Shown piece by piece: positions 2,692 to 63,171 of a DNA stretch of 64,000 nucleotides. The notes under the pieces are model-generated. The model ran no database searches. It was not told the origin of the DNA and was given only the letters and a program-made list of their open reading frames with translations. The DNA lies in assembly GCA_051294375.1 (NCBI GenBank), contig CM119266.1, positions 873,554 through 937,553 of the forward strand. The letters run 5' to 3'. The position numbers and the translations under genes are program-made. The stretch comes from Paraspadella gotoi. Taxonomy: Eukaryota > Animalia > Chaetognatha. Position 1 is the first letter of the stretch, and every line of letters begins with the position of its first letter.

Positions 2692-5009
2692 AGTGATAAG
2701 AGAAATCGCAATCCCGAAAGCCAAGGCCGAAAAGCAAAAAGGATCCTGAAGTTGGAGTTGAAGTCGGAAAAAAAAAAGATATTTTTTTAACAAAACTTTT
2801 TCAAGTCAGAGTCCAGACGAATAAGAGAGATGGGAAACTGTATGAATGGGATTTATATTTAACGAAGCCAAGTCGTAATTTGTGAAAACTAACTAACAGT
2901 TAACTGTTAATTCATCATAGTTTAAAATCCGACGAATAAAAATTGTTTCTCGAGGATAATTATTATTATTTCTTCACAAGAAAATAAGAAAAATATTCCC
3001 CACTAAATTGGTTTGAGTGAGAAGTGATCGATTCGTGAAAGTGACCCAGTTTTAACGACGATTTAACGAATCACTATGTAGTGGCGTCTCCTTGAGATGT
3101 GAATCGGAGATAAAAATCGGCGAAAACTAACGCATCTCGCTCTTCGACTTTAATCGCGTTTCAGTGTAGCGAGTCCAGACGCGGGACGAAAGGCAATCCC
3201 AAAAATGATCGAAATCCAAGGAGAAATTCTTAGCGATTTTTTTTCCTATTTTTTAGTTAATCATTTCACATAAAATTCATATTGGTTTTAAATGTTCACA
3301 AATAAAAATTGAATTTAGAACAACAAACATTTCTGTCGAGTGAGACGGAGAAAAAAGAGAGTGAGAGGAAGAGAGAGAATGTCTCACCTCGAAGATTCTG
3401 GTTGGAATCGTCGGTGGCGGAATGGTCGAAAGAGAGAGAGAGAGAGAGAGAGACAGAGTGAAGCAAAAAAAGGGAAAGAAAATAAAAAGGAATGACAAAA
3501 AAAGAGAAAATTTGGCGGGAAAGAAGGAAGAGGATGAAGACGATGATGACGACGATGATATAGAAGTTCGAATTAGAGTTGATGTCGAATATGTGAAAGT
3601 TAAGGATGAAGTCGAATCCAATGAAGTTACTTGAATCTCACCAAGAAACAGATTGTTTAATAACTGGACTCTCCAGATAATTAATCAGTATCAATACCCA
3701 GGCTCAGAATTGTGACTGACTCGTGATTTGATGCGAAAAATTATAGATTTGATCAAGGACCACCGCCAATAAAAATACCACCGAAATAATTTTGAAAAAT
3801 TTCTAAAAAAATGGAAAAACTGATGAAACGCCTAAAAAAAATAGGATTGACATTGAAAGTAAACGGCGAAGAAAAAAGATTAGGACCGAAATCGACGATA
3901 AAGTTTTCAACGAGGTTATAACTGACATTGAAAGCGAAAAAGAAATACTTTTCATCTCAAGTTCTCTTCTCCCCCACCTCCCCACGCAAAAAAGAAAAAA
4001 AAAGAAGCTGTTAGCAGAAAGAAAAATATATGTCGTAAAACTTTATTCTTCGGCCACCCGGCTGTTTTCACCGTCACGGTTAACCAACCTGTACTAACTA
4101 ATAATTAGTAACTGTGCTCCATACTAAATACGCCATCCATCGCTGCTTTTCTATTCGTTTCCACAGACGCGCGGACTTTTGTCCCCAGAGAGTCTCGGTT
4201 TCGAATCCCGAGCTCCGGATATGTCAACTTTTTCCCTTTTGTTTGTCCGGGGATTTTCGATTTTAAGACTCGAGAAACGATTCGAGGCAGAGATGACGAA
4301 TCGTTACTGAGATTCTTTTTTCTTTATTTAAACATTTTTAAAACTTTTTATCCATGTTGAATCTGTAAAAGTTTCTTTTCCAATTTTCGTTCTGCCAGGA
4401 AATAATGAGTCACTTTTCAAAAATTGTTTTTCTTAATTAACTATATATGTTAATGTATAATGTATATTTTTAATTCAAGTGTAATCAAAACAAATATTTC
4501 ATTAATCTAAAAAATGTAAATATTATACTTTTCATTCTTAACACAGTACAGAGCATTTAATCTTCGTCTACTTTACAACATTTCACTCTTCAAGCAAAGA
4601 ACTCCAAGGATTGCGCCGAGAGGGCGAGATGCTGCGTGCCAGAGGCTGAGCCACGAGGGTCGGACGGCGTAAGAGGGAGCGCCGAAAGGCGGGGCGTCGT
4701 CGAACCTTCTCCCGGGGAATGTAAACAAAAGAGAAATGTAAACAAAATGTTGTTTCTTTCTTCTGTTTTTTAAATCTCAAAACATCGCGAAGAGGAAAAA
4801 AAGGTCGAGAAGGTTTTGAAAAGTCTTGGCGCTGGACGCATTCCTGATTCGAGCCTCTTTCGGGTGTGGGTTGCGTGTGAAGAGGGTGGGGCAGTGGGGA
4901 GAAAAATCATGTGGAATTGTGGGCAATTGAATGAGCGGGACTGTGGCGAGAGAGCAGGTCGTCTGGATGTGAATCAAGGATAGCTTTGTTGACCGAAAAG
5001 CCGCTGGGA

Positions 5010-15585: not shown

Positions 15586-18500
15586 TCAAAGTCTCGTTAT
15601 GAAAACCAATTTATTGGTATCAACTACGCCGTTGCCACGCGACGCGACCGCGTTGCCATAGGAGACCGTTCTTATGTCACTAGAGTCGCCGCTGATTCCA
15701 TTCGAAGCGCCGCCACCAGCAACTGCAACATTTCTTGGCGCGGATTCGATTGTCCTAATATCTTTGTCTTCGGTGATGATTCGGTTGTCGTAGCCTCCCA
15801 AGTTTGTCGTCGACGTCGGCGTCGTCCCTTTTGGCTCCGTTTCGTCCTCGACGCTCCCGCGACAGTAAAACGAGTTTTTGTTTAGCCTCACGACCGAACC
15901 GGCCGGCGCCTCCTCCCACTCGAGGCGCTTCCGTCGCCTTCCCAGACACCGGGCGCTCGGTGGCAGCGTCTGCAGACGCCTCCGCACGCCGCGGCGACAT
16001 GACGCCGCCAGCGAAGCCAATTCGCGTCGGAAGGCGGCGCCGGTGGCGATGTAGCACAGAAAGTTGGAACAGTGATTTATAGTGGAAGCGAAGATGGCGA
16101 GGGAGAAGTGACGCTCCATGCGAGATTTGTAGAAGTCGCCTGGGTGCAGTGGTAAGGATACATAGAGGGCGCTTTTTTTTTAATGAAATCTGGAAATATC
16201 TAATTAACTTTTTCAACTAATAACTTAATAACTAATTAATGAATGATATTATATTAGTAAACTTTATAAAAAAAAGGTATATAAATTGGTGTATAGATAA
16301 TTATAAAAAAATACAATTTGCAAATGAGATGGAGAAAGCCAAGTTTTTCAAAGTATTAAGCGAGTAGCTTAGTAATATCGTCAATAACAACAACAACAAC
16401 AACGACAACAAGAAGTAGGACGACCAGCCTCACCCGCCCATCGTTCGGCGCTGGTGAAGACGCACATGGGGAGAGAGAGGACGAGGAATGTGATGGAGAC
16501 GATGGACAGCATGATGGTGAGGCGCTCGGCCGAGTCGGGCAGCATACCTGACACCGTGGCCGACGCCTGCCGACGACTGGGTTGGCCGGACGAGCGGGGG
16601 AGCTTGTCTGGGTGAGAGAGTGGACGGACCGGGGAAGGGGGACCGATATTATATTACAATATGACCCATGAAATAGGTACAACCAAAATAAAATTATGAA
16701 GAGGCTGGTTTTACAGGGCGCCACACCCGCAGCGGTGTCACCTCGTGGCGACAGCGAGACAGCATGTTCATGTAGTCCAGAGCTTTGGATCTGGCAGTAG
16801 GCCCATGCCTACAGGCGGGTTACCCGGTCCATCCCACTTTCTACATGACAACCTCAGGGCTCGAACCAGGGACGCACATTGGGATGGTGCATTAGTCCAC
16901 TGAGCCACTGAGGCGCTGCGGAAGAAACAGCTTTAATCCATCTGTGGTGATAGGACCACCAGAATTACACAATACCGATTCATTCAATTAATAAGCTATC
17001 TTGCCCCTGACTTAGAACAGGCTATGGTTGGTTAAGGCCTGCATCCTTGTTATAAGATAATCAATCCACAAACTTTTAATTAAATTAAGACCACTCAATC
17101 TGAGAACGTACATAAAAGGACAACTCCCATAAGTATTGGTTCAAGAAATATTTTATTTTTAATCTTTGACTTTGATCCGGTTCCAATACGGTTCCATTCG
17201 ATTCCATTCGATTCCATTCGATTCCCTCTTTTGGAGTTCTATATATTCCTACAATGATAGTTTACCCGCCTCTCCCCGGATGCGACGTTTGAGTCCCCGT
17301 ATGTGATAGAGAATGACGCCGTTGCAAACGCCGAGAATCAAGACTGGGATGACGAGGTAAGTCACGCTGGTGAGAGTTTTAAACGCCGCGCCCACCGATT
17401 CGTATTCGGGGTAAACGTCGCAGTGAGTTGTGTGATGATGGTCGCTGTGATTGGCTACAATTGAAAGAAATCGCTGTGATTGGCTACAATTAAAAGAAAT
17501 GCGTTACTGATGTGGGGGGGGGGAGAGTTGGAGAAAAATTATTTTTAAAAAAGTTATTACCTAAAATTCAAATTTAAATAATATGACACTTTCAATTTTC
17601 AATTATAAATTTTAAGTGAGCAATGTAAAGAAAAGACTAAACTAAACTTGCAATCGACAGCAAAGACGACGACGAGTCAAACCACAATCGACCAACTCAC
17701 GTAAAATATTCAGATGGTCGTGATCGCCGTAATTAGCGTCATCTATGGTGTCGGGTCCCATGATGACGAGATTCCATGACGACATTGCTGCAGCTAAAAC
17801 GAAGATGACGCACGTGACCCGAAACGCGTGAGTCCGACTGAAAACATTAATATGAAAATATCATGGGTGGAGTTTCGATGGATTTTTCATTTTGGCTGCA
17901 GCTTCTCCACTCTCTATCACCACATTGGTAAAACCATTATAAAATTATCCATTAATTCGTAAAATTTTGAACAGGCTGCTGTCATCTTTTCGCCGACCGA
18001 ATAGAACCTCAGACAACTTAAAAAAGAAAGGCGCTGCGACGGTGACAGCCTTTTCCGAGTGCCCAGCCTGTACCATTCCACCGCACACCGCCCAACCACG
18101 CTCACCTCGAAAACGAGGCTACCCTCAGCGGCGCTGCGACGGCTACAGCTTTTTCCAGCGTCACGGCGCAGATGATCCACGAGGCGGAAGTGAAGGAGAC
18201 GAAATTCGCCCAGGAAGAGATTTTGCAGAAGGAATCCGTCACGTGAAGGGAAGGAATTGATCTGGAGGCGGGGAAAACAAATAATTGGTCCGTCTGTCTG
18301 TCGCTCTGTCGCGTTACGTATCAACCGAATCCGTGACAATTACTTTTCAGACAACAACCAAATTTTTCCTCATTACCCAGTGAGTCCAATCAGCCCAATA
18401 CCCAGATCACCAATTAGTCCATAAGGCGTAGAACAAACCTAACCTGGGTCGCTCTCTCATTAATGAAGTCCCTGATACTCGTTATACTGACAATATTACT

Positions 18501-21500
18501 GACAAAAGTTATTATCTAAACACATAAAAATATCTTATTACCAATTATTCTTTTCCCAAAGACTTCATTACTCTGTTATTTAATAACTTTTAATCCACAG
18601 CTCGTTTCTCTTTCTAAACTGTTACTGTTACTAGTCAAGGCTACTCGTTACTCCCTACCCCATTACTCATACCGCGGTTACTCATAACGCTGTTATTAAT
18701 GCGCTAGTTAATCGTTACCCCGTTCCTCGTCACACTCTTAGTCTTAGTCTTAGTCTTGGTCTTGGTCTTGGTCTTGGTCTTGGTCTTGGTCTTGGTCTTA
18801 GTCTTTGTACCTCGGCAAGATGCGAACGAATCCTGTGAGGATGACGAGAGAGTCGGCGACGGCCAGACCACGGAGATAAGCGCAGATCACTGGGGGAGGG
18901 AAAGAGAGAAGGGATGAAGAGAGGGAGAAGAAGTGAGAGGGGAGAGAGAAGAAGAGGGAGGAGAGAGGAGAGGAGAGAGAAGAGGGGAGGAGAGAAGAAG
19001 AGAGAGGAGAAGGGATGAAGAGAGGGGAGGGAGAGAAGAGTAGGGGAGGAGAGAAGAAGAGAGGGGAGAAGAGAAGAAGAGAGAGGAGGAGAGAGGAAGA
19101 GAGGGGAGGAGAGAAGAGAGATGGGAGGAGAGAAGAAGAGATAGGAGGAGAGAAAACAGATACGAGGAGGAGGAGAGAAGAAGAGATAGGAGGAGAGAAA
19201 AAGAGAGAGGAGGAGGAGAGAAGAAGAGAGAGGAGGATAGAAGAAGAGATGGGAGGAGAGAAGAAGAGTGTAGGTCAGCATAGATGAGAGGAAGATGGAG
19301 AAAAATTATTTTTAAAAAAGTTATTACCTAAAATTCAAATTTAAATAATATGACACTTTCAATTTTCAATTATAAATTTTAAGTGAGCAATGTAAAGAAA
19401 AGACTAAACTAAACTTGCAATCGACAGCAAAGACGACGACGAGTCAAACCACAATCGACCAACTCACGTAAAATATTCAGATGGTCGTGATCGCCGTAAT
19501 TAGCGTCATCTATGGTGTCGGGTCCCATGATGACGAGATTCCATGACGACATTGCTGCAGCTAAAACGAAGATGACGCACGTGACCCGAAACGCGTGAGT
19601 CCGACTGAAAACATTAATATGAAAATATCATGGGTGGAGTTTCGATGGATTTTTCATTTTGGCTGCAGCTTCTCCACTCTCTATCACCACATTGGTAAAA
19701 CCATTATAAAATTATCCATTAATTCGTAAAATTTTGAACAGGCTGCTGTCATCTTTTCGCCGACCGAATAGAACCTCAACAACTTAAAAAAGAAAGGCGC
19801 TGCGACGGTGACAGCCTTTTCCGAGTGCCCGGCCTGTACCATTCCACCGCACACCGCCCAACCAGCTCACCTCGAAAACGAGGCTACCCTCAGCGGCGCT
19901 GCGACGGCTACAGCTTTTTCCAGCGTCACGGCGCAGATGATCCACGAGGCGGAAGTGAAGGAGACGAAATTCGCCCAGGAAGAGATTTTGCAGAAGGAAT
20001 CCGTCACGTGAAGGGAAGGAATTGATCTGGAGGCGGGGAAAAACAAATAATTGGTCCGTCTGTCTGTCGCTCTGTCGCGTTACGTATCAACCGAATCCGT
20101 GACAATTACTTTTCAGACAACAACCAAATTTTTCTCATTACCCAGTGAGTCCAATCAGCCCAATACCCAGATCACCAATTAGTCCATAAGGCGTAAGAAC
20201 AAACCTAACCTGGGTCGCTCCTCTCATTAATGAAGTCCCTGATACTCGTTATACTGACAATATTACTGACAAAAGTTTTATCTAAACACATAAAAATATC
20301 TTATTACCAATTATTCTTTTCCCAAAGACTTCATTACTCTGTTATTTAATAACTTTTAATCCACAGCTCGTTTCTCTTTCTAAACTGTTACTGTTACTAG
20401 TCAAGGCTACTCGTTACTCCCTACCCATTACTCATACCGCGGTTACTCATAACGCTGTTATTAATGCGCTAGTTAATCGTTACCCCCGTTCCTCGTCACA
20501 CTCTTAGTCTTAGTCTTAGTCTTGGTCTTGGTCTTGGTCTTGGTCTTGGTCTTGGTCTTGGTCTTAGTCTTTGTACCTCGGCAAGATGCGAACGGAATCC
20601 TGTGAGGATGACGAGAGAGTCGGCGACGGCCAGACCACGGAGATAAGCGCAGATCACTGGGGGAGGGAAAGAGAGAAGGGATGAAGAGAGGGGAGAAGAA
20701 GAGAGGGGAGGAGAGAAGAAGAGAGGGGAGGAGAGAAGAAGAGAGGGGAGGAGAGAAGAAGAGAGAGGAGAAGGGATGAAGAGAGGGGAGGAGAGAAGAA
20801 GATAGGGGAGGAGAGAAGAAGAGAGGGGAGAAGAGAAGAAGAGAGGGAGGAGAGAGGAAGAGAGGGGAGGAGAGAAGAAAGAGATGGGAGGAGAGAAGAA
20901 GAGATAGGAGGAGAGAAAAAGAGAGAGGAGGAGGAGAGAAGAAGAGAGAGGAGGATAGAAGAAGAGATGGGAGGAGAGAAGAAGAGATAGGAGGAGAGAA
21001 AAAGAGAGAGGAGGAGGAGAGAAGAAGAGAGAGGAGGATAGAAGAAGAGATGGGAGGAGAGAAGAAGAGAGGGGAGGAGAGAAGAAGAGAGGGGAGGAGA
21101 GAAGAAGAGATGGGAGGAGAGAAGAAGATTGANNNNNNNNNNNNNNNNNNNNNNNNNGAGGAGGATAGAAGAAGAGATGGGAGGAGAGAAGAAGAGAGGG
21201 GAGGAGAGAGTAAGAAGGCAAGGAGAAGAATGACCAGAAAAAAAAGAAGGAAAAAGAGAGGATGAAATTTGATGATAGTTTAAATCTAAAGAGCGATCAA
21301 AACTTCTTTGCCTCTTACAAGAAGTCAATTATGAAAACAGTTTTTATTTACGTTAATATAATTCGTATATTTAACTAAATTTTAAAATAGCAGCATTTCA
21401 AAAAGGCTCGAGGCTATCCGATGAGGATAAATCAATGATAATAACTGCGGATGGACCAAGGGTCGTCGCCGATATAAATCGGCGACCGATCTCCGCTTAT

Positions 21501-26934: not shown

Positions 26935-28879
26935 ATGTCGAGTTTTGTATCCAATGAAAACCGCAATGCCAATGGAATCGTCCATGAGCTTAATCTCTCT
27001 CCAAGTCCTCTCTCTTTTCTCCCTTCTCCATTCGTGGAATCCGATGATTTTATGAAAAAGTTTAATTTTGACAAAATTGTGGAAAAAATTCGCAATTTGG
27101 AGAAAAAGAGTTATCGAGTACAGGTTAATCGTTGACTTAAAAAATATATAATTCATTTATATATGTACCTAACTATTGAACTTTTAGGTTATAATTGGAT
27201 TGGTAGGCAGCCTTGATGACAGTATGGGATTTGACAAAAACGTACGAGGTAATTGTTTGAAAGTTTGAAACAAATCATTTTGAAATATTAAAATGATTTA
27301 TGTCAAACTTGACATGGTTCCGAAGTATAGCCTGTCACGATGCATAATATGTATACTTATCCTATCGTTGTCATCAATTAGATTCACGGTTTTTCAGTCA
27401 TTTTTTTGTTTGGTATTATTATTTTGATACATAATAGCAAATTTAAACTTATGATGCCAACTTTTGATATTTTGTTTTTTTATGAATCCAAATTAATATG
27501 GCATGACTGAATGCTGATTGCCATTACTTTATTATACTTATTTCACAACATAGCTCTTGTGACACTATTTTCTTTGATCTACATAATTTACGGCTTTACA
27601 CTTTCCCCATCTTGAGGCGACGAGCTCCTTGCCTCCGTCATCGAGCGAACCAATTCCAACTGCCTCGTCGTCTCTGTCCCCTGGGACGACGATTCCATCG
27701 ATTGGACGCGATTCCATCTCCTCATCCTTCGAGGATGCTACAACTACATCCATCACGTGACCGAGTTCCGACGCTGGCTCGACCTGCTGGAGCATCTCGC
27801 CGTGCCGCTCTGCAACTCTGTCGACGTGGTCAGGCAAAACCTGGAGAAAACTTACCTGCGGAGGCTGGAGGAGAAGGGGCTTCCCGATCGGGTGAGGCTG
27901 CCGAAGACGTGGTGGTTCGATGGGATCCACAGCGACGACATCTTTGACTTCAAGGCCGAGTTGATCAAGAAGGAATTTAAAAGGGGAGTCATTAAGCCCA
28001 TCATTGGCTGCGGTGAGTCAAAAGAATAAGATTTAAAGTATGAAATAAAGATATCAGCTATTTTTTCATTGTTTTTTCGATCAAATTTTTTACGACATAG
28101 TAAATTAGTATACAATTATTCTTTTCGTTACGTTTTAAATTTTGACCGAAAAAAGTTTTATTTGTACAAACACGAATAATATTCTAGCGAATATAATAGC
28201 GAAACTTATAGTTTTAAGAATTTTAAAAGTTTAAAATATTAAATTTAAGTAATTTAAGGTAAAAAATGACTTAAAATTCCCCCACCCAAAAAAAACCCCC
28301 CATACATACCCTTAATAATTCTTCCCTCCACTCCACGCCCCGCGCCACCCGCTCTCAGATTCCTATACCCAGTGGTGCTTCTCAATCTCGAGCTTCGACC
28401 AGAATCATGATCGTCAACTCCGATCGCAAATCGACTCCCCTCCCGGCGTCATGATCCAAGAATACATCGAAGCCATCGACTTCGCCTGGGAGGTCAACCT
28501 CGTCTTCATCGCCCGCCGCTTCAGCCACGCCGTCGTCCGCTCGCCCGTCCACGGCCCCGCGCGAGTAAAGGGAAAGCAGCGGGTGCGCAAGTGTCGCCCG
28601 GACGAAGCGTTGGTGAAGGCGGCCTCGCGGGTGCTGGATCTGGTGGAGGGAGAGTTGCTCTACGCGAGAGTCGATGTTGTTGTCGACAATGGGGAGGGAA
28701 GAAGTCTGATGGACGAGGGGATCAATGGTGATGCAATTTGGGTTCCATTGCATCCTTCTGGCGTTGTTTACTTGATGGAAGTGGAGCTGATCGAACCCAA
28801 TCTCTTCTTGAACGAAAAGAGTGCGGCGACGCTTGGCCGCGTCGTGCAGAAGATTTTTAAACGAGCTCAATGCGTTTGA
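26935..28879 (+). CDS. Bacterial-type RimK/glutathione-synthetase-like ATP-grasp ligase (DcsG-like), exons 26935-27123, 27188-27248, 27617-28012, 28359-28879
   Basis: Motifs VPWDDDSIDWTRFHLLILRGCYNY, LCNSVDVVRQNLEKTYLRRLEEKG, VIKPIIG, MIQEYI..EVNLVFIARRFSHAV, LLYARVDV and LMEVELIEPNLFL. Three phase-consistent introns. Confidence 0.88.
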
Positions 28880-35337: not shown

Positions 35338-35941
35338 TAAGGCGTAGTGAAAGTTACATACAAAAATTCTAAAAGTCAATTATGAACAACATACCATCAG
35401 TGAACATTAATTTGTAAAAAAAATTAATTTTATGTTTTTTAATTTTCGCAGTAGGCTATATTTATATATAGTACTATCCTTATAAAATCGAAAAATTTCA
35501 AATTAGGCTTTTCTTAATTTTGATTGCAGATTTGAATTTCTCGTCAAAAGTTTATAAAAGAAAATATAAATCATTTTTAAAAATTCTTTCATTAAGTGGG
35601 TTAAAAATTAAAAAAACTATATTTAAAAAATTAATTTTCAGCTTAAAATATAGCTTTTTCTAATTTTTGACCCACTTAATGAAGAAAATTTTCAAAAAGA
35701 TTATATTTCTTTTTATCAACTTTTTATGACAAATCCAAATCTGCCAAAAAATCTTAGAAAAAACTGTTTTAAAATTTTAACATTTATTGGTTTAGTACTA
35801 GTATAAATATGGCCTACTGCGTAAATTGTAAAATTTATTATAAATTTTTTTTATGCATAAATGTTTATAAGTATAATGTTGTTCGTTCTTCACTTTTAGA
35901 TTTTTAATTAAAGTTAAACTTAGGAATTTTACTACGCCTTA
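35338..35941. mobile_element. hAT-type MITE, 604-bp imperfect palindrome with 8-bp TSD
   Basis: ttgtatac|TAAGGCGTAGT...ACTACGCCTTA|ttgtatac. Inverted matches run along the whole length (e.g. TTCATTAAGTGGGT / ACCCACTTAATGAA). An 8-bp TSD and TAAGG ends fit hAT. Confidence 0.85.
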
Positions 35942-35956
35942 TTGTATACAATTATA

Positions 35957-36197
35957 TTGTGTATAAACTATCAATTTCGTTGCGTTTTGAAATTTAGGAG
36001 AAAAAACAATTTATTTGTTTTTATCAACGAATTGTTTTATTGTTAATTGTTAATACATGTTTCGACTCTTGAGTTTTAGAGTCTTCATCAGTTATGTTAT
36101 GATGAAGACTCTAAAACTCAAGAGTCGAAACATGTATTAACAATTAACAATAAAACAATTCGTTGATAAAAACAAATAAATTGTTTTTTCTCCTAAA
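35957..36197. mobile_element. Penelope-like insertion: perfect 99-bp inverted repeat carrying two minimal hammerhead cores, 12-bp TSD
   Basis: Arms 35992-36090 and 36100-36198 with a 9-nt loop. Core (C/A)TGATGA-A-GACTCT..AGAGTC-GAAA-CATGTA on each strand. TATACAATTATA at 35945-35956 and 36198-36209. Confidence 0.75.
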
Positions 36198-36266
36198 TAT
36201 ACAATTATACAATTATACCTGTTTGTTAGATTGGATTCGCTCCTCAGGCGGCATAAACTTTTAACA

Positions 36267-41084: not shown

Positions 41085-53117
<12,033 letters not shown>

Positions 53118-60300: not shown

Positions 60301-62001
60301 TCTCCGCCACCAGACGGCGTGAGTTATCTCTCCTCCGCGGTGATGGGCGTGACTGCGCGACCGACCAAGATGATGATGGAGTGGGTCAACGACCGTATCG
60401 CTCCAGCCTATTGGGTCCCCAACGCCGAGATCCACGTCTGTCGTCACTGCCCTACCTACTCACCGCTCCGGAGACCAAGCACCACTGCAGGTGAGTTGAG
60501 GGGTTTACCAAGCACACTAAAAGTGTGTTCGGGGGCAGACCAAGCACACTATTGCAGGTGTGTAATAGGGTAAATCAAGGTGTGTTTACGTCTGAAAACT
60601 GCCACTATGGCAACGGAGGATAGCCTGTGATAGCCGGGGCCGCGGGGTATCTCACCAACTGGCGTCAGGGGCTGCGACCCTCAGTGACCGCCTCTGTCAC
60701 TGGCATTGTTTAATAACCGGCAACCGGATCACATTTAAGCAGAACCGGGATACCCAGGGATTGAACCCGGGACGCGCCAACGGATGGAATGAGATGATTT
60801 AGCCTGCTTCAGCCATTGAGAACTAGGCTGAGGACGGCACAGCCAGTGAGGCAGCTTTAGTCTTGCTGCCACACCACAACATTTACCGCAAGATTATTAG
60901 GAAAAATCATTGTCGAAGTATAAAAAGAGCGAGCAAGTTGAGTAGATCAGAAACCTAAGTTGAAAAATTTTAAGATAGGAATCTTTCAGCATCCCTTCCT
61001 CCTAAAATGGATCATTTTCACTTTCCCCACTTCTCCCTATCATCACCACATCCATTTCATAAGCCTTTTCTCTCCTTTTTTTCCCTTCTTTCGACCAACT
61101 CCATTCAGACGATATATTCTTTTATTCCCCCCCACGCCCCCCCACCACTCCTCCTTTCACTATATTCATTCTCCTCCAAAGGTCCTGCGGAGGCGGGTTC
61201 TGCGACGACTGCAATCGTGGCGCCGCCTGTCCTCAGCGTGTGGGGAGACTTCCGGTTCGCGTCTGCCGGCCTTGCTACGAGGCGGCGTCGACTCCGACGA
61301 CGCCGGGTCCCCGCGGCAGCAGCGGCGGCGCGACGCTGCGGGAGAGTCGACGCCGGTTTGACGGCGCGGAGGATCGAGGAGGCCGTCCAGTCGACGCTGG
61401 GCGTCGTGGCCTCGGCGGCCGAGTATCCCATCGAAATCCTCAAGGTGAGAAATTCGATCGATCGATTGATGATGATTGATCGATCGATTGAATCTTTGAT
61501 TTATTTATCACTAATAGTTATTGAAACCAAATAATTAATTAATATTTTTTACTTTTGTTTGGAACTGGTTATTTTAATCAAATGATTAGAGTAAAGAATT
61601 GATTTAAATAATTTGTGTCGTGATTAAATTAACTGAGGTTTATTATTTATTGTATTGTGTACTTTACTTGTTTCTAAGTTATTTATCATGCGGCGTCGAA
61701 TGTTTGTGAGAAGTCTTCCCTCGCCCTTCCTTCCAACTTCACTCATCCTTTTCTCTCTCCTCCCCCCCATTCAAAGGACTCTGTTCGCCCCACCTACTGG
61801 CGCCCCGACGCCGAAATCTTCTCCTGCTGCGTCTGCGGCGGCTCCTTCGGCCCTAAACTCTCTATCCATCACTGCCGCTCCTGCGGAGAGGGCGTCTGCG
61901 AGGCCTGCTCCCCGCACCGCAAAGCGGTTCCCTTCCGGGGCTGGGATCATCCAGTTCGGGTCTGCATCTCTTGCGTCGACTTGCCTCCTCCGCCGCCTTG
62001 A
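54393..62001 (+). CDS. ZFYVE1: Zinc finger FYVE domain-containing protein 1 (DFCP1), about 17 exons
   Basis: N-terminal B-box-like CKERLAC..CEEC..CREC..H; P-loop SIFGNTGDGKSYTLNHTFF; LDTEGLLG..RMLLKVLAISDIVIYRTRAERLH; FPDEYFTC; KYAWSGYVLECPSCG; two C-terminal FYVE domains (YWVPN..KHHCR; YWRPD..IHHCRSCG). Apparent 1-nt indels at about 60460 and 61200-61350. Confidence 0.95.
60606..60873 (-). mobile_element. Second copy of the family B Pol III/twister TG...TA element, 4-bp TSD CCAC
   Basis: ccac|TATGGCAAC...GCTGCCACA|ccac on the plus strand. Colinear with 44217-44473 apart from small indels. A different TSD shows an independent insertion. Confidence 0.85.
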
Positions 62002-63171
62002 GGAGCGTTGTGGGGGTGGGGGAGGAAATTTGGGGTTCGAGTGACGAGTAGACTGATTTGGGGATGTGGTTTGCGGTGTGTGACACTGTGTGTGTGGGAA
62101 GGGGCGGTTTAAGTCGTAATGGTTTTGCTATTACTATTTTTTTCTTTGTCAGCTGTCGTATTTTGTTTTTTTTTCCCTCTCCCAAATTTTAGCTAAAATT
62201 TTTTTGGGGTTATTTAATATTTTTTTCTTTAGTGCTATCGTTTTGCTTTCTTGTTTTGTTATGTTGTCTTCATAAGGTTTTGCGCTTAGACTTTGTCTTA
62301 AAAAAACTGTTTTTTCTTGTCGAGTTGAAAACTTTTGAGCGTCATTCGATGAACATGTTATAAAAACAATATTCCATACTTTAAAGAATAGTAGTTAGGT
62401 TAGTAGTTAATATTTGTGTTTTAGTTTGTTGCTTTAATCAGGAAATACAATTTTATTTCATAATATTATTTCCGAATTTTATGTTTGGGAAAAAAGTTTG
62501 ACTTGGCTGAAGTTCTACGACCTAACAAAGACGTAGATTTTTAATTTAAAGATATATTTGCATACTTGCATATATATACGAGATATCTTGTACAATGTAC
62601 CTCAGTGGACGTACTCCCGCGTTTTAAAACTACTTGCATTCATACATTGATTCGTACACAACATTTTTTTAGACAGAAAACAATAATGTAGTTGTAAAAA
62701 CTATGATGATCGTTTGTCCTCGTTCCGCAACTTCCTTCTTCTTTTGTATCTCGATTTTGATATTACAATCAAAGGATAAAAAACTGACTATGATTAATGT
62801 TGACGCTCTGGTGGCTCCATACAATGACAGCACTGAAAGTTAGTCAGCTATTTTTGTATGAAATTGGTACAACCAATATAAAAATTATCCATTCATTTAA
62901 TAAATAAGCTATCTTGCCCCTTACTAATATCGGGTAACTATTATATGTACGAGAGCAGATTAAAAAAAACTTTTAAAAGGTTTTGAATAGATAATAACCA
63001 TAATAATAACTATTTTATACATCATACATAAAGTAACAATTTTTTTCAAGAATACGCTACATAAAAATAAGAAAAATAAAAATTGGATTAAAAACTCAAG
63101 AAGAAAAATACATTATTTTCTGGCGTCAAGAAAATGATTGGGTTTTCGGTGGAAGGCAATCATTTAATTTT

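What the first reader, a model, noticed from the sequence alone, without database searches (positions are those of the whole stretch)
16695..16969. A divergent family keeps the same twister architecture with every helix changed
Seen: same layout as the 44217 element (TG..CATA ends, TTAAAGCTG, A box, GTGCGTCCC-B box, then the fold) but different stems: P5 TCATGTAG/CTACATGA vs CTGGC/GCCAG; P3 GTAGGC/GCCTAC vs CAGTGAC/GTCACTG; P4 CCAGA/TCTGG vs AGGG/CCCT; P2 GTGG/CC-C vs ATGT/ACAT; T1 TGGA/TCCA vs CG/CG. The UAA, GA, GC and AGC nucleotides and a CCGG palindrome at P1 are invariant. The loop UCCAAAGC matches the UCCNAAGC loop of characterised twisters. Inference: the structure has been under selection across an old, diversified element group.
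Basis: partly seen in the sequence, partly recalled or inferred. Interest (0 to 1): 0.85.

Follow-up and report, generated by a model that had tools for sequence, protein, structure and literature searches.

The report
Twister ribozyme inside tRNA-promoter LTR
Two abundant families of short repeats in an animal genome carry tRNA-like promoter boxes followed by the same twister-ribozyme fold built from different sequences, and they are likely leftover end-repeats of miniature retrotransposons whose RNA would cut itself and close into circles, which would be a new job for this ribozyme class.

Summary
The fold is real. 16768-16848(-) is a P5-permuted twister-type structure, and the sister element at 44217-44473 has the same core with every helix rewritten. 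A descriptor ranks these two first in the window; 1 of 1,120 shuffled windows reached this copy's score. Read data add a test: over 99% of depth restores the sister family's broken pseudoknot pair, so that pair reads C-G (Schistosoma), A-U (here), G-C (sister). Both families are multicopy with sharp ends, A/B boxes and no T-run; the two sister-family copies have perfect 4-bp target duplications. Best reading: solo LTRs of a Helenus-type mini-retrotransposon that work like plant retrozymes, with a twister in place of the hammerhead. The palindromic P1 may make cutting depend on two LTRs. Not shown: cleavage, transcription, a two-LTR element with PBS and PPT, or the host taxon. Rfam does not recognise the fold, and a non-catalytic register is 6 kcal/mol more stable in this copy.

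The parts
16697..16969 (-). Element E1, one copy of a multicopy family, likely a solo LTR; family 3' end at 16697 (CA), 5' end between 16963 and 16969
   Evidence: Depth step and loose ends in 4 runs; flanks and candidate duplications
16941..16963 (-). 5' hairpin; a diverged copy in run X10 keeps both arms with a changed loop
   Evidence: Fold; loose end at 16935 in X10
16928..16936 (-). TTAAAGCTG, shared with the sister family (44451-44459); possibly a TATA-like upstream element (inference)
16851..16914 (-). Decayed tRNA-like segment closed by an acceptor-like stem; A box 16897-16907, GTGCGTCCC 16869-16877, B box 16857-16867
   Evidence: ARAGORN calls no tRNA in the window
16841..16848 (-). 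Twister P5, 5' strand (pairs with 16768-16775, 8 of 8)
16834..16837 (-). P2 3' strand; pairs with the 3-nt strand 16817-16819 if U16836 is bulged
   Evidence: same letters in the family majority
16832..16833 (-). GA: predicted general-base G and the A of the trans A.A pair
   Evidence: Position relative to P2 and T1 as in PMC8501958 Table 1 and PMC5408937
16829..16831 (-). T1 pseudoknot strand UGG, pairs with CCA 16786-16788
16823..16828 (-). P1 linker with central CCGG; cannot form a hairpin, can form a 4-bp self-duplex
   Evidence: self-duplex -8.1 kcal/mol, hairpin 0.0
16820..16822 (-). UAA; predicted cleavage between 16822 and 16821
   Evidence: cleavage rule from PMC8501958 section 17; untested
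16815..16819 (-). P2 5' strand CCC (16817-16819) and T2 GC (16815-16816, pairs with 16782-16783)
16795..16814 (-). P3 hairpin; its outer letters match the S. mansoni P3 stem
16777..16794 (-). P4 (16790-16794/16777-16781) and loop L4 16782-16789
16768..16775 (-). P5, 3' strand
16697..16767 (-). 3' segment with two hairpins and no T run; predicted to pair with the core once transcribed
44217..44473 (-). Element E2, sister family; TG...CATA, 4-bp duplication ATAT; A box 44406-44417, B box 44364-44374, twister 44270-44349, predicted cut 44323^44322; this copy has a private change in T1 at 44287
60606..60873 (-). Element E3, indel-rich copy of the E2 family, 4-bp duplication CCAC (+ strand)
16978..17012 (.). 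Right part of an unrelated high-copy host repeat that E1 interrupts (left part 16668-16693); an uninterrupted copy lies at 62858-62925
   Evidence: joints 16693 to 16978/16980 in X4

Best explanation
E1 is one copy of a multicopy 270-base repeat with sharp ends, tRNA-type A and B boxes and a P5-permuted twister fold, and it is likely the solo LTR of a Helenus-type miniature retrotransposon that would work like a plant retrozyme with a twister in place of the hammerhead. Steps: (1, inferred) RNA polymerase III starts near 16915 from the A/B boxes and, with no T run in the unit, reads through it. (2, predicted) The twister cuts at 16822^16821. [quoted passage not shown] (3, inferred from retrozymes) A host ligase closes that RNA into a circle. 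(4, inferred) A Gypsy-type reverse transcriptase and integrase copy and insert it, leaving 4-bp duplications; most copies are now solo LTRs. (5, least certain, about 35%) The palindromic P1 linker pairs between two ribozymes and so favours cutting in two-LTR transcripts over solo copies lying in host introns. Shown: the fold and its covariation, multicopy status, sharp ends, perfect 4-bp duplications at E2 and E3, A/B boxes, no T run. Not shown: transcription, cleavage, circles, PBS/PPT, the partner element.
For: Descriptor and shuffles. All of UAA, GA, GC, L4 U/A/GC present with complementary T1 and T2. At 44287 the sister family carries the pairing base in 581,819 of 583,520 depth (X2), 188,566 of 188,729 (X4), 6,236 of 6,241 (X9) and 518,629 of 519,440 (X1). 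CHiTA on 1,948 natural type-P1 twisters found P1, P2 and P4 imperfections (bulges and deletions included) and A-to-C at the trans A.A pair tolerated, and pseudoknot mismatches harmful (PMC11662667); both families depart only at tolerated places. Depth over the element is at least about 280-fold the flank in X4 (6,253 vs 22) and falls at both ends; loose ends have mixed AT-rich flanks, agreement 0.41-0.55 in the DNA runs. 4-bp duplications at 2 of 2 E2-family copies. Animal Helenus have tRNA-like A/B boxes in the LTR, 4-bp duplications, solo LTRs and Gypsy partners (PMC10886601); one LTR there ends in CATA and two gall-wasp LTRs show by eye a hammerhead core just 3' of the tRNA-like part. Plant retrozymes: ribozyme in the LTR, 4-bp duplications, circles, solo LTRs (PMC4918200). 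A diverged homolog seen in X2, X4 and X9 changes two linker bases and stays self-complementary.
Against: No two-LTR copy, PBS or PPT was seen; the listed loose ends and joints show none, though the tables are cut. E1's own duplication is imperfect with TG-started ends (3 of 4) and perfect only if the copy starts at 16963 without TG. Rfam gives no twister hit for E1 or E2 even at E 10. In E1 a 5-bp helix that buries the catalytic G and the T2 bases has probability 0.63 and is 6.0 kcal/mol below the twister register before tertiary contacts; in a full-length transcript P5 and P3 drop to about 0.1. The E2 window copy folds no better than shuffles (z +0.48, 139 of 200 as good), and E1's z of -2.15 is nearly matched by its other strand, -1.95. 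P2 was described as 4 bp with length changes possibly disruptive, and the G-C closing P4 as essentially invariant (PMC5408937); E1 departs from both. P1 is dispensable for twister cleavage, so the palindrome need not gate anything; its outer pair varies in 6-13% of E2 depth in X2.
Confidence: 0.5

Rival explanations
1. Same solo-LTR element, but in the E1 family the twister is a weakened or dead relic carried along passively; the element moves as an ordinary Helenus.
For: 3-nt P2 strand, A-U closing P4, competing 5-bp helix and anti-core pairing of the 3' segment; most published Helenus LTRs that I read show no ribozyme.
Against: Both pseudoknots and all catalytic bases are intact in the family majority; a homolog with 15 differences in 84 bases shows no listed change in the P2 strands, GA, T1 strand or T2 bases; such imperfections are tolerated in natural twisters.
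Confidence: 0.2
2. A tRNA-promoter non-LTR retrozyme or SINE, like Schistosoma Sm-alpha, copied by a Penelope-like (Naiad) or RTE element; the twister came from that partner and processes tandem transcripts.
For: Sm-alpha has a Pol III promoter followed by a hammerhead (PMC6765202); Penelope hammerheads have palindromic loops and cut as dimers; a 3,622-nt contig in X9 shares only the twister region, and Naiads are 3.4-4.4 kb and lack canonical hammerheads (PMC8557442).
Against: Sharp ends on both sides, 4-bp duplications, no tail, the tRNA part about 50 bases inside and no tandem copies among the 3 in the window; animal non-LTR retrozymes are tandem with longer duplications (PMC7229834); T-variant twisters sit at the 5' end of the element with insertion starting at the cut, whereas here the cut is internal.
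Confidence: 0.17
3. A miniature DNA transposon (4-bp duplication, TG-started inverted ends) that captured a tRNA-twister cassette.
For: E2 has a 9-base imperfect inverted repeat at its ends and occurs as single units.
Against: E1 has no such inverted repeat; a promoter and ribozyme kept under covariation in two families imply an RNA stage.
Confidence: 0.08
4. The twister pattern is a chance reading of GC-rich hairpins.
For: No Rfam hit; weak folding z-scores; descriptors written after seeing the elements.
Against: Shuffle rates, same place after the B box in two families, and the family base at 44287 completing the pseudoknot.
Confidence: 0.03

Closest known systems
Twister ribozyme, type-P5 permutation (class of Roth et al. 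2014, not read; described in PMC5408937 and PMC11662667)
   Same: UAA at the cut, catalytic GA, GC/GC T2, 3-bp T1, 8-nt L4, P2, P3, P4, P5 in the P5-permuted order
   Different: P1 is a 6- or 8-nt palindromic linker and not a hairpin; E1 has a 3-nt P2 strand and an A-U pair closing P4; Rfam models do not score it; activity untested
Helenus (TRIMp3), animal families; Kojima 2024, PMC10886601
   Same: tRNA-like A and B boxes inside a short TG-started unit, 4-bp duplications, solo copies, several families per genome
   Different: About 160 bases after the B box holding a twister and no T run, whereas in most animal Helenus LTRs that I read the tRNA part is followed soon by a pyrimidine run and the end; no ribozyme is mentioned for Helenus in the main text; two-LTR form with PBS/PPT not seen here
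Plant LTR retrozymes; Cervera et al. 2016, PMC4918200
   Same: Ribozyme inside a non-coding LTR-like unit of about 300 bases, 4-bp duplications, solo LTRs, presumed Gypsy partner
   Different: Animal host, twister instead of type III hammerhead, internal Pol III boxes; circles and PBS/PPT not shown here
Twister T-variants of Perere-3 (RTE) in Schistosoma mansoni; Liu et al. 2021, PMC8501958
   Same: Twister tied to a retroelement; very similar P3 stem and L4 loop
   Different: Those are type P1, at the 5' end of a non-LTR element, with P1 partly supplied by the target site; here the ribozyme is permuted and internal
Sm-alpha SINE-like elements and dimer-cleaving hammerheads of Penelope-like elements (reviewed in PMC6765202)
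   Same: Pol III promoter followed by a ribozyme; palindrome replacing a closing hairpin
   Different: Hammerhead, tandem arrays, non-LTR insertion

Membership tests
Twister ribozyme | U/N-A-A at the cleavage site and G-A on the opposite L1 strand | tested here: met
   16820-16822 and 16832-16833; 44321-44323 and 44335-44336
Twister ribozyme | Two pseudoknots, T1 (3 bp) and T2 (GC/GC) | tested here: met
   E1 3 of 3 and 2 of 2; E2 window copy 2 of 3, family majority 3 of 3
Twister ribozyme | P2 of four base pairs | tested here: not met
   E1 family has 3 pairs plus a bulge; met in E2. Described as 4 bp in PMC5408937 but imperfections tolerated in PMC11662667
Twister ribozyme | P4 with a near-invariant closing G-C pair and L4 U/A/GC | tested here: inconclusive
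   P4 5 of 5 and L4 letters present, but closing pair is A-U in E1; G-C in E2
Twister ribozyme | P1 stem (conserved, dispensable for activity) | tested here: not met
   Linkers form no hairpin, only self-duplexes of 4 and 8 bp; dispensable
Twister ribozyme | Score against the Rfam twister models | tested here: not met
   No twister hit at gathering score or at E up to 10
Twister ribozyme | Site-specific self-cleavage | not testable with these tools
   Needs an assay; only contigs, no raw RNA reads, were available
Helenus / TRIMp3 | tRNA-like sequence with A box (TRGCY..YGG) and B box (GGTTC) inside the LTR | tested here: met
   against the motifs in PMC10886601 section 3.5
Helenus / TRIMp3 | 4-bp target duplication (animal families) | tested here: inconclusive
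Helenus / TRIMp3 | LTR-type termini (TG ... CA or TA) | tested here: inconclusive
   E2 family TG...CATA confirmed; E1 family ends CA, 5' end unresolved
Helenus / TRIMp3 | Two LTRs flanking a short internal part with PBS and PPT | tested here: inconclusive
   All 3 window copies are single; no such form in the listed loose ends or joints, but 260 and 604 loose-end rows were not shown and no genome is held
LTR retrozymes | Hammerhead ribozyme in each LTR | tested here: not met
   No CUGANGA..GAAA core inside E1, E2 or E3; the fold is twister-type
LTR retrozymes | Abundant circular RNA bounded by the two cut sites | not testable with these tools
   No run on record as RNA was listed
tRNA-derived SINE | tRNA head at the 5' end, 3' tail, variable longer duplications, 5' truncation | tested here: not met
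   Head about 50 bases inside, no tail, sharp ends, 4-bp duplications

The most novel reading that the evidence does not exclude
These are the first animal LTR retrozymes driven by a twister and a Pol III promoter, and their palindromic P1 makes them natural domain-swapped dimeric twisters: two LTRs in one transcript must pair to cut, which counts LTRs, frees a circle and spares host pre-mRNAs that carry a solo copy.
Probability: 0.22. Interest if true: 0.85.

Novelty: new variant of a known kind. Interest (0 to 1): 0.66.

Why it matters
Twister ribozymes are widespread but have few assigned natural jobs. Here two high-copy families give a concrete, cheap test: a predicted cut site, a catalytic-G control, a natural pseudoknot-broken copy (44287) and a palindrome that predicts concentration-dependent cutting. 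If the LTR reading holds, it joins two classes described apart (tRNA-promoter TRIMs and ribozyme-bearing retrozymes), extends LTR retrozymes from plants to animals and from hammerhead to twister, and shows a permuted twister type that Rfam misses, so such elements may be hidden in many repeat libraries. A working 3-nt P2 strand would also widen the twister consensus.

Tried and rejected
No whole genome is held, so no copy set, family alignment, covariance model or R-scape-type test could be built; only 3 copies plus read tables were available. Rfam: no twister hit in 4 scans. ARAGORN: no tRNA. Pattern scans for relatives: metagenomes gave 2 stretches, both lacking P3/P4 pairing by eye and dropped as chance; viral contigs 0 and 0; prokaryote genomes 0. 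Expression: no RNA holder listed; X9 is only guessed to be RNA, so nothing is claimed on transcription. X10's small share is not used for habitat. One protein search to place the animal found nothing; the taxon stays unknown. A MAFFT alignment of the three cores did not recover the structural register and was not used. Helix coordinates were mostly off by one and its helix probabilities and energies were discarded (only the self-duplex and T-run lines are used); scripts 59 and 64 crashed, and 64 is used only for the E1 core lines it printed; one search is the corrected run. E2 and E3 as the two LTRs of one 16-kb element: rejected, each has its own duplication. PMC5785218 (dimeric hammerheads) is not held. 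Sequence look-ups of E1 and E2 in earlier findings found nothing.
Full report
Setting. The window is animal DNA with GC-rich exons in AT-rich introns (Pfam hits to GDA1_CD39, TSP_1, PAN_1 and ASC). No whole genome is held and the taxon is unknown. Ten public runs hold the stretch, nine of one coded organism. The finding, here E1, has two relatives in the window: E2 at 44217-44473 and E3 at 60606-60873, which are 91% identical to each other; E1 shares only 23 alignable bases with E2, around the B box. All three lie on the minus strand.

The observation. In order on the minus strand E1 reads P5, P2 3' strand, GA, T1 strand, a 6-nt linker with central CCGG, UAA, a 3-nt P2 5' strand, GC, P3, P4 with an 8-nt loop, P5. 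This is the order of a type-P5 twister. The fixed bases agree with the S. mansoni twisters tabulated in PMC8501958, whose P3 stem and loop are close to E1's. A strict descriptor hits only E1 and E2 in the window (it misses the indel-rich E3); 0 of 20,000 shuffles of either element give core plus P5, and 60 shuffled windows give 5 core hits, 3 with P5. Under a looser descriptor the window has 5 hits, scoring 25 (E1), 22 (E2), 18, 13 and 12; 1,120 shuffled windows gave 2,507 hits, 1 at 25 and 9 at 22 or more. Both descriptors were written with the elements in view, so these rates are optimistic.

An independent test. The E2 window copy has a mismatch in pseudoknot T1. Contigs laid on it carry the pairing base at 44287 in more than 99% of depth in 4 of 4 runs. 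The third T1 pair therefore reads C-G in S. mansoni, A-U in E1 and G-C in the E2 family. With P2, P3, P4 and P5 all rewritten yet paired, this supports selection on the fold between families. It is two lineages plus one from print. Within the E2 family most of the 34 listed variant rows are C>T or G>A and none can be phased.

Corrections. It is CCC: a 99-nt contig of X9 matches 16768-16866 exactly at depth 872 of about 1,060, and no indel reaches 5% in 4 of 4 runs. A diverged homolog (15 differences in 84 bases, no gap; 6 of the 15 can be read from the table) shows no listed change in the P2 strands, GA, T1 strand or T2 bases; it changes the base before the cut to C and two linker bases, leaving the linker self-complementary. 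T1 is 3 bp, since the first loop U has another role in the crystal structures. TG...CATA ends hold for E2 (loose ends at 44213-44217 and 44473-44474). For E1 the best-supported 3' loose end is 16697, so the family ends in CA, and the 5' end lies between 16963 and 16969.

What kind of element. Depth over E1 is far above its flanks in all runs (lowest listed 6,253 against 22 in X4) and the same holds for E2 (63,970 against 24); the tool warns that these sums are no copy numbers, so I say only that both are high-copy. Flanks of other copies are mixed and AT-rich. E1 interrupts another repeat whose empty form is seen at 62858-62925 and in X4 joints. Each unit has A and B boxes about 50 bases inside, no tail, and no run of four T before the flank. 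This is not a SINE layout. It fits solo LTRs of animal Helenus, TRIMs with a tRNA-like sequence in the LTR, 4-bp duplications and Gypsy partners (PMC10886601). The defining two-LTR form with PBS and PPT was not seen, and the read tables are cut, so membership is open.

How it likely works. Pol III would start near the A box and read through the LTR. A twister in each LTR of a full element would cut out a unit-length RNA that a host ligase closes, as shown for plant retrozymes, which also have a ribozyme in the LTR, 4-bp duplications and solo LTRs (PMC4918200; RtcB ligation for animal retrozymes in PMC7229834). A Gypsy-type enzyme pair would copy and insert it. The P1 linkers cannot form hairpins but can self-pair, 4 bp in E1 and 8 bp in E2, which recalls Penelope hammerheads with palindromic loops that cut as dimers (PMC6765202). 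A centred palindrome of 4 or more bases arises by chance in about 6% of such linkers, and the two families share ancestry, so this is suggestive only. P1 is dispensable in twisters, so a monomer may cut as well.

Is E1 active? For: every catalytic and pseudoknot base is intact, and a test of 1,948 natural type-P1 twisters found P1, P2 and P4 imperfections and the A-to-C change seen in E2 tolerated (PMC11662667); base-pair swaps in T1 and T2 keep activity (PMC5113685). Against: the 3-nt P2 strand and the A-U closing P4 depart from the consensus; a 5-bp helix that buries the catalytic G is favoured by 6.0 kcal/mol in secondary-structure terms; the 3' segment is predicted to disrupt P5 and P3 once made (0.09-0.11, against 0.78-1.0 when the RNA ends at P5); Rfam gives no twister hit; folding z-scores are weak. 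I put activity of the E1 form at about 60%.

Host context. E1 lies in the sense orientation in an intron, 16608-17265, between two in-phase exons that look by eye like GPCR transmembrane segments (Pfam gave no hit for these short exons). E2 lies in the sense orientation just upstream of an exon that hits PF00858, amiloride-sensitive sodium channel (E 5e-11).

Novelty. Eight full-text searches listed no paper on a twister in an LTR, a TRIM or a tRNA-promoter element, or on a natural dimeric twister; the library lacks most subscription papers, and Repbase and Dfam could not be checked. Twisters are reported at the 5' ends of RTE elements. Kojima's main text names ribozymes only in a reference title. 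In his consensus file I found no E1 or E2 motifs in a twister context, but two gall-wasp LTRs show a hammerhead core after the tRNA part (by eye, recalled motif, untested). Earlier AI notes of this scan describe palindrome-armed P5 twisters in Naiad elements of other genomes and Helenus-like solo LTRs without ribozymes; I did not test them and use them only as leads for the origin of the module.

What I read. PMC8501958: abstract, sections 3 and 17. PMC10886601: main text parts 1-4 of 6; supplement parts 1 and 5-9 of 11 and two word searches (parts 2-4, 10, 11 not read). PMC5408937: parts 1-3 of 7 and passages. PMC11662667: abstract, sections 32 and 38, passages; its supplements, which hold the P2-length data, were not read and bear on the activity estimate. 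PMC5113685: whole main text. PMC6765202: passages and the first part of section 11. PMC4918200, PMC7229834, PMC7761336, PMC8557442 and bioRxiv 10.64898/2026.07.22.740005: passages only. Roth et al. 2014 and Lunse et al. 2017: not read.

Verdict. A real twister-type fold, conserved by covariation in two high-copy families that most likely are solo LTRs of tRNA-promoter mini-retrotransposons. New variant of a known kind; interest 0.66.

Noticed in passing
run X9, record 26 (matches window 16775-16858): A 3,622-nt contig shares only the twister region (15 differences in 84 bases). Depth 160 in X9, where most other listed single-locus contigs lie at 2-19, while the same variant sits at flank-level depth in X2 and X4. 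It may be a transcript or an autonomous partner; its sequence could not be fetched.
   Followed up: partly
PMC10886601 supplement, Helenus-2_SyJa-LTR and Helenus-2_SyUm-LTR: By eye these two published gall-wasp Helenus LTRs hold a hammerhead core in type III layout just after the tRNA-like part, which the paper's text does not mention; they would be hammerhead counterparts of E1 and E2. Motif recalled, not scanned.
   Followed up: partly
window 16668-16693, 16978-17012 and 62858-62925: A short AT-rich repeat with higher depth than E1 itself in all runs; E1 is inserted in one copy and an empty copy lies at 62858.
   Followed up: partly
window 35992-36198: A near-perfect 207-bp palindrome; on the minus strand a CUGAUGA...GAAAC core with a short palindromic helix begins at 36091, like the minimal hammerheads of Penelope-like inverted ends (recalled). 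Rfam returned only generic hairpin matches.
   Followed up: partly
window 35363-35905: A 543-bp imperfect palindrome (75% arm identity), MITE-like.
   Followed up: no
window 17526-19287 and 19293-21045: A 1.77-kb tandem duplication (97% identical) holding GPCR-like exon pieces; real duplication or assembly artefact.
   Followed up: no
run contigs laid on 16708-16852: A diverged single-locus relative (31 differences in 145 bases) keeps the twister and 3' part but joins 16852 to 16896, so it lacks the B box.
   Followed up: no
window 4150-4240: Another tRNA-like B-box segment followed by T runs on the plus strand, possibly an unrelated SINE.
   Followed up: no
window 28319-28879 (+): An intron-poor reading frame with motifs that look by eye like a bacterial-type ATP-grasp enzyme; no Pfam hit.
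   Followed up: partly
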